Of a stretch of 320 nucleotides of DNA, positions 1 through 318 are shown in pieces. The notes under the pieces were generated by a model. That model was not told where the DNA came from and searched no databases. It saw only the letters and a program-made list of their open reading frames with translations. The stretch lies in NCBI RefSeq assembly GCF_003334255.1, contig NZ_QOWU01000263.1. One strand, given 5' to 3'. The translations under genes were made by a program, and so were the position numbers. This DNA comes from Escherichia coli. GTDB taxonomy: Bacteria; Pseudomonadota; Gammaproteobacteria; Enterobacterales; Enterobacteriaceae. Positions within the stretch are counted from its first letter, which is position 1, and every line of letters begins with the position of its first letter.

Positions 1-4
1 TTTA

Positions 5-16
5 GGGCGCTTTTTT
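5..16. terminator. Possible distal half of an intrinsic terminator, truncated by the window edge: GGGCGC followed by TTTTTT
   Basis: On the + strand, GGGCGC (5-10) is followed directly by a T6 run (11-16). The complementary GCGCCC stem arm would lie left of position 1 and is not visible. On the minus strand the same region reads, just after the tRNA CCA, A6-GCGCCC, i.e. the A-tract side of a possibly bidirectional terminator. Only half the structure is present, so this is tentative. Confidence 0.3.
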
Positions 17-20
17 ACAT

Positions 21-96
21 TGGTGGGTCGTGCAGGATTCGAACCTGCGACCAATTGATTAAAAGTCAACTGCTCTACCAACTGAGCTAACGACCC
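21..96 (-). tRNA. tRNA-Lys, anticodon UUU, 76 nt with genomically encoded 3' CCA
   Basis: Reverse complement of 21-96 is GGGTCGTTAGCTCAGTTGGTAGAGCAGTTGACTTTTAATCAATTGGTCGCAGGTTCGAATCCTGCACGACCCACCA. It folds as a canonical cloverleaf: acceptor stem GGGTCGT/ACGACCC (7 bp), D-arm GCTC/GAGC, anticodon stem GTTGA/TCAAT with loop CTTTTAA (U33, anticodon UUU at window 61-63, A37), T-arm GCAGG/CCTGC with loop TTCGAAT, discriminator A, CCA. Recognised from memory as the E. coli-type tRNA-Lys(UUU) of the lysT family; the specific paralog is not assignable from sequence alone. Confidence 0.96.
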
Positions 97-144
97 ATAC
101 GGGTGTTACCTGAAAGATTTTTACTCGGGGCCAATCTTTAAGAT

Positions 145-162
145 TGGTGGGTCGTGCAGGAT
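145..162 (-). repeat. Orphan 18-nt tRNA-Lys 3'-end fragment (tRNA positions 59-76: end of T-loop, T-stem 3' strand, acceptor 3' strand, discriminator, CCA)
   Basis: 145-162 (TGGTGGGTCGTGCAGGAT) is identical to 21-38 and 243-260, the 3' termini of the two full genes. Identity stops abruptly at 163; the following sequence shows no tRNA body (no T-stem 5' strand, anticodon arm or D-arm). It therefore cannot fold into a tRNA and is a remnant, not a gene. Confidence 0.85.
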
Positions 163-242
163 GACTCGCTTCGCTCGCCCTACGGGCCGTTGCTGGCGCA
201 ACGTTATCCTTCACGCTTAACATCTGAGTTTGATGTTAAAAC

Positions 243-318
243 TGGTGGGTCGTGCAGGATTCGAACCTGCGACCAATTGATTAAAAGTCAACTGCTCTAC
301 CAACTGAGCTAACGACCC
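243..318 (-). tRNA. tRNA-Lys, anticodon UUU, 76 nt with genomically encoded 3' CCA (second copy, identical to 21-96)
   Basis: 243-318 is base-for-base identical to 21-96 (76/76). Same cloverleaf; anticodon at window 283-285. It lies upstream of the 21-96 copy in the direction of transcription. Positions 319-320 are probably the first bases of a short spacer to another upstream gene, which is not visible here. Confidence 0.96.

What the first reader, a model, noticed from the sequence alone, without database searches (positions are those of the whole stretch)
217..239. AU-rich 8-bp hairpin immediately downstream of the upstream tRNA-Lys 3' end
TTAACATC (217-224) and GATGTTAA (232-239) are exact reverse complements with a 7-nt loop (225-231). 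On the transcript this hairpin begins 4 nt after the CCA of the 243-318 tRNA. A stem-loop at this position in a polycistronic tRNA precursor is a plausible determinant for endonucleolytic separation of adjacent tRNAs or for protection of the 3' trailer. It is not followed by a U-run, so it is not a terminator.
Basis: seen in the sequence. Interest (0 to 1): 0.22.

Follow-up and report, generated by a model that had tools for sequence, protein, structure and literature searches.

The report
Conserved hairpin opening a tRNA-linked repeat
The hairpin is real and has been kept as an RNA structure across enteric bacteria, but it is the first stem-loop of an already catalogued "tRNA-linked repeat" that fills the spacer between two lysine tRNA genes of E. 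coli, and that repeat family still has no known function.

Summary
There is an exact 8-bp inverted repeat at 217-224/232-239, which extends to 9 bp with U240·G216. It starts 3 nt after the CCA of tRNA-Lys 243-318 on the minus strand, folds at about -7.4 kcal/mol (z -4.6), and has no U-run.

The window is the E. coli lysT tRNA operon, and its spacer is identical to the K-12 lysY-lysZ spacer. Positions 145-242 are one unit of the known tRNA-linked repeat (TLR / Rfam RtT) family. The unit consists of the hairpin (P1), a closing helix (P2), small core hairpins and an 18-nt copy of the tRNA-Lys 3' end.

I compared 45 distinct homologous trailers from about 40 Enterobacteriaceae genomes. P1 is paired in 96.8% of cells and 7 of 9 pairs show compensatory changes. 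G·U outnumbers A·C 42 to 5, so the structure is maintained in the tRNA-sense RNA.

P1 is not required for tRNA-Lys maturation. Other Lys trailers in the same operon lack it. Published work shows that RNase P, cutting at tRNA 5' ends, separates the tRNAs. A viable strain lacking all 22 TLRs is also listed.

The most likely role, which is inferred, is a boundary and 5'-cap stem-loop next to an RNase E-type motif just after the CCA. The element is already known and of low to moderate interest.

The parts
243..318 (-). Upstream tRNA-Lys(UUU) gene, the lysY equivalent. Its CCA is at 245-243.
   Evidence: ARAGORN; Rfam tRNA 79.2 bits; identical to K-12 lysY context.
240..242 (-). Linker G-U-U between the CCA and the hairpin. 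Together with A243 and U239 it reads AG|UUU, which fits the RNase E core motif RN|WUU.
   Evidence: Sequence. Motif definition from PMC5222698. The motif sits 1-2 nt after the CCA in 38/40 class-A trailers against 12/53 others.
216..240 (-). P1, the hairpin of the finding. The exact 8-bp stem is 239-232 with 224-217, there is an additional U240·G216 pair, and the loop AAACUCA is 231-225.
   Evidence: single sequence; 96.8% paired, 7/9 pairs with compensatory changes, G·U 42 vs A·C 5, 21 of 28 arm haplotypes fully paired.
206..215 (-). 5' strand of the TLR closing helix P2 (CGUGAAGGAU). It directly abuts the 3' end of P1.
   Evidence: RNAalifold consensus on 45 class-A units; MFE of the isolated unit; the 5' strand changes with tRNA identity in other K-12 TLRs.
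163..205 (-). Conserved TLR core: P3 CGUUGC/GCAACG (203-198 with 193-188), P4 GCCC/GGGC (within 177-187), then GAGCGAAGCGAGUC (176-163).
   Evidence: Rfam RtT RF00391 alignment; near-invariant across Enterobacteriaceae; shared with the Tyr, Arg, Ser and Pro TLRs of K-12.
145..162 (-). 18-nt exact copy of the tRNA-Lys 3' end (AUCCUGCACGACCCACCA), the TLR hallmark. 162-153 is the 3' strand of P2 and ACCCACCA is left as a tail.
   Evidence: Direct repeat family D2; TLR definition in PMC8144298.
97..144 (-). Distal, non-repeat part of the spacer leading to the next tRNA. It contains a hairpin CCAAUCUUAAAGAUUGG (with 145-147) that overlaps the pseudo-CCA.
   Evidence: (I1, I5).
21..96 (-). Downstream tRNA-Lys(UUU), the last Lys gene of the operon in this strain. 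Its 5' end (96) is the RNase P site that separates it from the upstream precursor.
   Evidence: RNase P processing model in PMC4176162.

Best explanation
SHOWN. The hairpin is helix P1 of a tRNA-linked repeat (TLR, RtT-like) unit that occupies 145-242 of the lysY-lysZ-type spacer of the E. coli lysT tRNA operon. The unit is CCA, a 2-3 nt A/G-UU linker, P1 (9 bp, AU-rich), P2 immediately after it (CGUGAAGGAU paired with the first 10 nt of an 18-nt copy of the tRNA-Lys 3' end), the inner hairpins P3 and P4, and a single-stranded ACCCACCA tail. In one subclass of Lys-linked TLRs ('class A') P1 is maintained across Enterobacteriaceae by compensatory substitutions, and it is maintained on the tRNA-sense RNA strand. 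INFERRED. P1 most likely acts in cis in the precursor as a boundary element. By folding locally it leaves only the U-rich 2-3 nt after the CCA single-stranded. This presents an RN|WUU RNase E-type site 1-2 nt after the CCA, so that only a very short 3' extension remains for RNase T or RNase PH. After that cut, the released TLR fragment starts with at most 2-3 unpaired nt followed by a stem-loop that can stack on P2. That arrangement is known to shield RNAs from 5'-end-dependent RNase E attack. P1 is therefore an accessory processing and stability module of the repeat. It is not the determinant that separates the tRNAs, which is RNase P, and it is dispensable for making tRNA-Lys.
For: Identity and context: 100% match to E. 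coli NCTC86 between cpoB and nadA, and the spacer is identical to K-12 lysY-lysZ. RtT RF00391 scores 54.4 bits against a gathering score of 45. There is an 18-nt tRNA 3'-end copy. The TLR definition and the 22 catalogued K-12 TLRs, five of them in the lysT operon, come. Structure: the isolated unit folds into P1+P2+P3+P4, and RNAalifold on 45 units gives the same structure with P1 abutting P2. Covariation was measured on 45 distinct trailers chosen by sequence clustering, not by fold. 96.8% of cells are paired, against 35-44% for slid registers. 7/9 pairs and 17 cells change on both sides, and 0/500 shuffles reach these values. There are 42 G·U against 5 A·C cells, and 21/28 arm haplotypes are fully paired. 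Boundary and RNase E inference: RN|WUU lies 1-2 nt after the CCA in 38/40 class-A trailers against 12/53 others (motif). RNase E does cut in the long lysT-operon spacers and 'stimulates' processing. 5' stem-loops protect RNAs from RNase E 5' sensing, and AU-rich tRNA trailers are conserved in RNase E-containing bacteria.
Against: No experiment addresses P1. In rne-1 cells mature tRNA-Lys falls only from 0.95 to 0.89, and the authors assign trailer removal to RNase II and PNPase, then RNase T. The class B (lysT-valT) and class C (lysZ-lysQ) trailers of the same operon have no consensus hairpin although they follow identical tRNA genes. One orthologue (E. hormaechei subsp. hoffmannii, L031) has a degenerate P1. 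A viable strain lacking all 22 TLRs is listed. The U-rich linker may simply be part of an AU-rich stem base. The copies evolve in concert, so there are fewer independent compensatory events than covarying cells.
Confidence: 0.45

Rival explanations
1. P1 belongs to a stable, trans-acting RNA cut out of the spacer. This would be a TLR-derived small RNA comparable to RrA/B/F of rrn operons or the 3'ETS-leuZ sponge. P1 would protect its 5' end or contribute to a protein-binding or RNA-binding fold, for instance a tRNA acceptor-arm mimic made of stacked P1-P2 plus an ACCCACCA tail.
For: The whole unit is strongly structured (z -3.5) and its core is almost invariant across genera. Other TLRs (RrA/B/F) are processed, accumulate and bind Hfq and CsrA. 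tRNA spacers can act as sponges.
Against: Few processing intermediates from the lysT operon are seen in wild type. The 19 tRNA-operon TLRs scored below 0.01 as CsrA binders. The P1 loop is only partly conserved. No phenotype is reported for the TLR deletion strain in the text I could read. No partner was identified here.
Confidence: 0.17
2. P1 is a folding insulator. By stacking on P2 it would help lock the 18-nt copy of the tRNA 3' end into the repeat's own fold, so that the copy cannot replace the true 3' strand of the upstream tRNA during folding.
For: P1 abuts P2 with no intervening nucleotide. The copy is identical to the true 3' end over 18 nt. Non-class-A trailers instead often carry GGUGG, complementary to CCACC of that copy (31/53 against 3/40), which could be an alternative way of sequestering it.
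Against: Equilibrium partition-function folding of tRNA plus spacer gave no support. P2 probability was 0.44 with P1, 0.39 without it and 0.41 with swapped arms. The true acceptor stem was predicted better without P1 (0.62 against 0.24). Such predictions for long unmodified precursors are unreliable, so this test is weak either way.
Confidence: 0.1
3. P1 has no RNA-level function. It would be a palindromic passenger of a repeat family that spreads and is homogenised by recombination and gene conversion among tRNA-Lys/TLR copies, with pairing preserved through DNA-level processes.
For: TLRs are repeated and vary in copy number (4 Lys genes in NCTC86 against 5 in K-12). Copies within a genome resemble each other. 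TLRs are dispensable for viability. Some lineages have lost or replaced P1.
Against: Compensatory changes occur at 7 of 9 pairs in different genera, with G·U intermediates present. The strong G·U over A·C asymmetry (42:5; still 24:5 after leaving out the terminal pair, derived) is expected for selection on the sense RNA, not for a DNA palindrome. P1 evolves in sequence while the flanking core is nearly invariant, yet it stays paired.
Confidence: 0.1
4. The hairpin is a transcription terminator or attenuator, or simply a chance inverted repeat.
For: In other TLR-bearing trailers (lysQ, lysV, serX, proK) the position just after the CCA is occupied by a real Rho-independent terminator hairpin.
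Against: P1 has only 2 G-C pairs, no U-run follows it, and the terminator scan makes no call there. Downstream tRNA genes are co-transcribed. Chance is excluded.
Confidence: 0.02

Closest known systems
tRNA-linked repeats (TLRs) of E. coli, first described by Egan & Landy 1978 and catalogued by Rudd 1999 (both as cited in PMC8144298). They include the RtT RNA (rttR) of the tyrT operon, Rfam RF00391.
   Same: The element lies directly downstream of a tRNA gene in the same operon. It ends with an 18-nt copy of that tRNA's 3' end. It shares the core AACGUUGC-N4-GCAACGGCCCGNAGGGCGAG...CGAGU.AUCC and a closing helix whose 5' strand matches the tRNA-specific copy. This very spacer is one of the five lysT-operon TLRs among the 22 listed for K-12.
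   Different: The Rfam RtT model does not contain P1. In the window it aligns its 5' half to the real tRNA and treats the hairpin as a 44-nt insertion. The module between the CCA and P2 differs between TLR subfamilies: class-A hairpin, GGUGG-containing segments, other hairpins in the Tyr and Arg TLRs, terminators in Ser, Pro, lysQ and lysV.
RrA, RrB and RrF, the TLRs downstream of 5S rRNA in rrnA, rrnB and rrnD (PMC8144298)
   Same: They belong to the same repeat family. They are transcribed as part of a stable-RNA operon, and their 3' end mimics the upstream mature RNA.
   Different: They sit between two terminators, accumulate as sRNAs and bind Hfq and CsrA through GGA motifs. The tRNA-operon TLRs scored below 0.01 as CsrA binders. 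Nothing comparable is shown for the Lys TLRs.
RNase E sites 1-3 nt downstream of the CCA in E. coli tRNA precursors
   Same: There is an AU-rich single-stranded RN|WUU motif directly after the CCA, flanked by structure.
   Different: In the lysT operon RNase P, not RNase E, makes the separating cuts, and RNase E is only stimulatory or a backup. Cleavage at this linker has not been mapped.
5'-terminal stabiliser stem-loops (ompA and papA type; cited in PMC3985628)
   Same: A stem-loop lying within a few nt of a 5' end blocks 5'-end-dependent RNase E attack. A cut after the CCA would leave P1 in that position.
   Different: Those are at primary 5' ends of mRNAs. Here the 5' end would be produced by processing, and the stability of the fragment is unknown.
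3'ETS-leuZ and the metZWV internal spacers, which are tRNA-precursor-derived sRNA sponges (Lalaouna 2015 as cited)
   Same: They are non-tRNA segments of a tRNA operon transcript released during processing.
   Different: They work through Hfq and base pairing to RyhB and RybB. No such complementarity or binding was tested or is known for this spacer.

Membership tests
tRNA-linked repeat (TLR) | Located immediately downstream of a tRNA (or rRNA) gene within the same operon | tested here: met
   The unit at 145-242 follows tRNA-Lys 243-318 and precedes tRNA-Lys 21-96 in the lysT operon.
tRNA-linked repeat (TLR) | 18-19 nt at its 3' end identical to the 3' end of the upstream tRNA | tested here: met
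   145-162 equals 243-260 (TGGTGGGTCGTGCAGGAT on the + strand), 18 nt exact (D2).
tRNA-linked repeat (TLR) | Shares the conserved core sequence of other TLRs | tested here: met
   The core aligns to RtT model positions ~62-130. The same core is seen in the K-12 Tyr, Arg, Ser, Pro and lysV TLRs.
tRNA-linked repeat (TLR) | Listed among the 22 K-12 TLRs | tested here: met
   The spacer is identical to K-12 lysY-lysZ. The strain table lists five TLRs (T, W, Y, Z, Q) in the lysT operon.
Rfam RtT RNA (RF00391) | Covariance-model score above the gathering threshold | tested here: met
   54.4 bits against 45, E 3.9e-10. Three comparable hits and one annotated RtT lie in the same operon.
Rfam RtT RNA (RF00391) | The hairpin of the finding corresponds to a helix of the family model | tested here: not met
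   The hairpin falls in a 44-nt insertion of the alignment, and the model's 5' half is aligned to the real tRNA.
Rho-independent terminator | G+C-rich stem followed by a U-run | tested here: not met
   The stem has 2 G-C pairs out of 8 and is followed by GCGUGAAGG. The scan makes no call there.
RNase E processing site after a tRNA CCA | Single-stranded AU-rich RN|WUU motif 1-3 nt after the CCA | tested here: met
   A243 G242 | U241 U240 U239. The motif is present in 38/40 class-A trailers.
RNase E processing site after a tRNA CCA | RNase E-dependent cleavage in vivo at that position | not testable with these tools
   Published Northern blots show RNase E cuts somewhere in the lysY-lysZ spacer when RNase P is defective, but no nucleotide-level site is given in the text.
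RNase III substrate | About two turns (~20 bp) of continuous double-stranded RNA (my own knowledge) | tested here: not met
   P1 is 9 bp. P1 and P2 could only reach ~19 bp as a stacked, discontinuous helix with a mismatch.
tRNA-spacer-derived sRNA sponge (3'ETS-leuZ type) | Stable released fragment that binds Hfq and pairs with sRNAs | not tested
   No expression or interaction data were available here. Few intermediates are seen in wild type.

The most novel reading that the evidence does not exclude
The class-A Lys-linked TLR would be a selected, autonomously folding RNA domain. P1 would stack on a truncated acceptor/T-arm mimic (P2) that carries a free ACCCACCA tail. This domain would act as a decoy or substrate for enzymes that act on tRNA 3' ends (RNase T/PH/II, the CCA-adding enzyme, RNase P, poly(A) polymerase) or as a stable regulatory RNA. 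That would give the 45-year-old TLR family a function tied to tRNA 3'-end metabolism.
Probability: 0.12. Interest if true: 0.55.

Novelty: already known. Interest (0 to 1): 0.2.

Why it matters
TLRs were first seen in 1978 and 22 copies are catalogued in E. coli K-12. For the copies in tRNA operons, no function is known. Showing that the first helix of the Lys-linked units is kept by compensatory evolution on the RNA strand argues that at least this part is under RNA-level selection rather than being inert repeat DNA. It also gives a precise, easily mutable handle for testing what TLRs do in tRNA precursor processing: the P1 arms, compensatory swaps of those arms, and the U-rich linker. For genome annotation, the Rfam RtT model mis-registers on Lys-linked units, overlapping the true tRNA and skipping P1. 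If P1 has no measurable effect, the finding is just a well-conserved detail of a known repeat.

Tried and rejected
1. Terminator reading: rejected, because there is no U-run and the scan makes no call.

2. Chance inverted repeat: rejected.

3. A general 'hairpin after the CCA' in all Lys-linked trailers: RNAalifold gave no consensus helix for class B (26 sequences) or class C (9 sequences). Only about half of all 102 variable segments fold better than their shuffles. P1 is therefore class-specific.

4. Insulator hypothesis: partition-function folding of tRNA plus spacer with P1 intact, disrupted or arm-swapped gave no support.

5. DNA-level or antisense structure: the antisense strand would be paired in only 87.7% of cells against 96.8% for the sense strand.

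6. Literature searches for a described role of lysT-operon spacers, rttR or TLR RNAs beyond PMC8144298 and PMC4176162 found nothing relevant. Vogel 2003 RNomics is not held.

7. No phenotype of the delta-22-TLR strain was found in the main text.

8. No protein-coding reading was pursued, because the region is a tRNA operon spacer. No protein tools were used.

Full report
**Observation**

The window carries two tRNA-Lys(UUU) genes on the minus strand, at 243-318 and 21-96. TTAACATC (217-224) and GATGTTAA (232-239) are exact reverse complements separated by 7 nt (I6).

On the transcript the order is CCA (245-243), G242-U241-U240, then the hairpin. U240·G216 can add a ninth pair.

The 29-nt RNA folds at -7.4 kcal/mol, against -1.27 +/- 1.33 for dinucleotide shuffles (z -4.6, 0/200 as good). 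A perfect 8-bp inverted repeat with a 3-10 nt loop arises in 1.0% of shuffles of the spacer and 2.8% of shuffles of the window. No U-run follows and the terminator scan is silent there.

**Where the window comes from**

The window matches E. coli NCTC86 at 100%, between cpoB and nadA. This is the lysT tRNA operon. The 146-nt spacer (97-242) is identical to the lysY-lysZ spacer of K-12 MG1655. NCTC86 has four Lys genes in this operon where K-12 has five. The K-12 lysZ gene and its trailer are missing.

**What the spacer is**

Positions 145-162 are an exact 18-nt copy of the 3' end of tRNA-Lys (D2). The stretch upstream of the copy matches Rfam RtT (RF00391) at 54.4 bits, above the gathering score of 45. 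Every Lys gene of the operon is followed by such a unit.

This is the tRNA-linked repeat (TLR) family. As summarised in PMC8144298:
- it was first described in 1978 and catalogued by Rudd in 1999;
- there are 22 copies at ten K-12 loci;
- each copy ends with 18-19 nt identical to the 3' end of the upstream tRNA or rRNA;
- the copies in tRNA operons have no known function, and the early claim for the tyrT RtT RNA was withdrawn.

The strain table of that paper lists five TLRs in the lysT operon and a strain lacking all 22.

One technical point concerns the Rfam alignment. It places the 5' half of the RtT model on the real tRNA and treats the hairpin as a 44-nt insertion. The family model does not describe this helix.

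**Anatomy of the unit**

The isolated unit (145-242, minus strand) folds as follows (z -3.5):
- P1, the hairpin;
- P2, immediately after P1, in which CGUGAAGGAU pairs with AUCCUGCACG, the first 10 nt of the tRNA-end copy, with one A·G mismatch;
- inside P2, P3 (CGUUGC/GCAACG) and P4 (GCCC/GGGC);
- a free ACCCACCA tail.

RNAalifold on 45 homologous units gives the same architecture.

In the other K-12 TLRs (Tyr, Arg, Ser, Pro, lysV) the core is shared. The 5' strand of P2 changes together with the tRNA-specific copy: GGGGAAGGRU for Tyr, GGGAGGAU for Arg, GGGGGGAU for Ser and GAGGAU for Pro. This supports P2 by covariation between paralogues. In all of them some hairpin lies within 0-7 nt of the true CCA. 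It is a Rho-independent terminator in serX, proK, lysV and lysQ, and a non-terminator hairpin in the Tyr and Arg units.

**Comparative test of P1**

I scanned one genome per species with CACGACCCACCA-N35-65-AACGGCCCG. These anchors lie outside the hairpin. The scan returned 78 loci, about 68 of them Enterobacteriaceae and the rest chance hits in high-GC genomes.

The roughly 27 nt between the CCA and P2 are the variable part of the unit. Clustering by sequence, not by fold, gave three main groups:
- class A, 45 distinct trailers from about 40 genomes in many genera, which includes the window;
- class B, of the form ATCGYT..GGTGGAA..;
- class C, of the form ..AGGTGGTWACTGGTAGAG..

On the class-A alignment the 9-bp helix is paired in 96.8% of 405 cells, against 35-44% for registers slid by 1-3 columns. 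Seven of nine pairs and 17 cells show changes on both sides, and none of 500 shuffles reaches the observed values.

Examples of compensated stems:
- TTAACGTC/GACGTTAA in Pluralibacter;
- TTAATGTC/GACATTAA in Enterobacter mori;
- TCAACAT/ATGTTGA in Pseudescherichia and Escherichia sp. ESNIH1;
- AACACC/GGTGTT in Kosakonia and a gut isolate;
- TTAACGCT/AGTGTTAA in Kosakonia sp. S29.

G·U intermediates are present in other species. Of 28 arm haplotypes, 21 are fully paired.

G·U cells outnumber A·C cells 42 to 5. The helix would be paired in only 87.7% of cells on the opposite strand. The structure is therefore maintained in the tRNA-sense RNA.

Caveats: copies within a genome evolve in concert, the sampled loci had to keep both anchors, and the shuffle control ignores phylogeny. 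The number of independent events is thus smaller than the number of cells. However, compensations at seven different pairs in different genera cannot be a single inherited event.

**Limits of conservation**

Classes B and C give no consensus helix. In K-12 these are the lysT-valT and lysZ-lysQ trailers, which follow tRNA-Lys genes identical to lysW and lysY. One class-A orthologue (E. hormaechei subsp. hoffmannii) has three mismatches, and one (RIT691) has a register-shifted hairpin of its own. P1 is thus selected within one TLR subclass but is not a requirement for producing tRNA-Lys.

**What is known experimentally**

Agrawal, Mohanty and Kushner (PMC4176162) studied exactly this operon. They report:
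- RNase P removes the terminator and then works 3' to 5', cutting at the mature 5' end of each tRNA.
- This leaves Lys pre-tRNAs with 2-150 nt trailers. The authors assign removal of these trailers to RNase II and PNPase, with RNase T finishing.
- RNase E 'stimulates' processing and cuts within the long spacers, including lysY-lysZ, when RNase P is defective.
- Inactivating RNase E alone lowers the mature fraction only from 0.95 to 0.89.

The text gives no nucleotide-level site in this spacer and does not discuss the spacer's structure or its repeat nature.

**How it most likely works (inferred)**

In 38 of 40 class-A trailers, against 12 of 53 others, the nucleotides after the CCA form the RNase E core motif RN|WUU (PMC5222698). 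The motif is placed for a cut 1-2 nt after the CCA. In the window this reads A243 G242 | U241 U240 U239.

P1 confines the single-stranded part of the trailer to this short U-rich linker. A cut there would have two effects:
- it would leave a 1-2 nt extension for RNase T or RNase PH;
- it would release a TLR fragment that starts with at most 2-3 unpaired nt followed by a stem-loop stackable on P2. That configuration is known to shield RNAs from 5'-end-dependent RNase E attack (background in PMC3985628).

I therefore rate a boundary and 5'-cap role as the best-supported mechanism, with about 0.4 confidence for the mechanism and above 0.9 for the identity.

Rivals, in order of my confidence:
- P1 is part of a stable trans-acting TLR RNA (0.17).
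- P1 is a folding insulator that helps sequester the tRNA-end copy (0.10). Equilibrium folding with P1 intact, disrupted or arm-swapped gave no support.
- P1 is a functionless palindrome homogenised at the DNA level (0.10). The G·U asymmetry and multi-site compensation argue against this.
- P1 is a terminator or a chance repeat (0.02).

**Comparison with known systems and verdict**

The element meets every defining feature of a TLR that I could test, and it is one of the catalogued copies, so the finding is 'already known' as an element. In the literature available to me I did not find the observation that P1 of the Lys-linked class-A units is covariation-supported, sense-strand specific and directly abuts the closing helix. 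I could not read Rudd 1999 or Egan & Landy 1978, so I do not claim priority.

The structure is real and selected. It is not the determinant that separates the tRNAs, and its role in trailer processing or protection is untested.

Interest is low to moderate (0.2). It is a tidy structural detail and an experimental handle for an old, unexplained repeat family, not a surprise.

Noticed in passing
window 131-147 (with 110-119): Right at the end of the repeat unit, CCAAUCUUAAAGAUUGG forms a hairpin that includes the pseudo-CCA of the tRNA-end copy. Its 3' arm (AAGAUU) can alternatively pair with AAUCUUU at 110-119 (I1/I5, 6).
   Followed up: no
window 1-20; L001 2334-2520: The last Lys gene is followed by a Rho-independent terminator (AAAAAAGCGCCCUAAAGGCGCUUUUUU), then a fifth TLR (annotated 'RtT sRNA' by PGAP), then an exact second copy of the terminator. 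The arrangement is terminator-TLR-terminator, like rrnB T1-RrB-T2.
   Followed up: partly
L001 vs L081 (K-12 781369-781576): There is copy-number variation in the operon. NCTC86 has 4 Lys genes and lacks the K-12 lysZ gene plus its class-C TLR, consistent with recombination between repeated tRNA-Lys/TLR units.
   Followed up: partly
variable segments of non-class-A Lys trailers in L003-L080; K-12 L081 331-360 and 1146-1175: GGUGG, complementary to CCACC of the tRNA/TLR 3' end, occurs in 31/53 non-class-A variable segments against 3/40 class-A ones. In Kosakonia it sits in the P1 loop. It may form a loop-tail pairing with the ACCCACCA tail.
   Followed up: no
L082-L086 (K-12 tyrT/tyrV, serX, argVYZQ, lysV, proK loci): Across TLRs linked to different tRNAs, the 5' strand of the closing helix changes to match each tRNA-specific 3' copy, while the inner core (AACGUUGC-N4-GCAACGGCCCGNAGGGCGAG) stays the same. 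The repeat therefore looks like an acceptor/T-arm minihelix with a conserved insertion in place of the T-loop.
   Followed up: partly
window 145-311 (-): The Rfam RtT hit spans the real tRNA body and skips the hairpin as a 44-nt insertion. The model's 5' half is tRNA-like, so RtT hits on Lys-linked units are mis-registered. PGAP annotates only the terminal unit.
   Followed up: yes
L073, L033, L010: Contigs labelled Chryseobacterium sp. 18061, Hylemonella sp. UBA6679 and an unclassified Proteobacteria MAG carry typical enterobacterial tRNA-Lys plus TLR units. This is probably contamination or misbinning.
   Followed up: no
L038 (Enterobacillus tribolii), L016 (Enterobacteriaceae RIT691): These lineages have a different hairpin at the same place, directly after the CCA (UCAUYUG-AUA-CAGRUGA and GACAUUG-AACU-CAAUGUC). 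The structure appears to have been replaced rather than lost.
   Followed up: no
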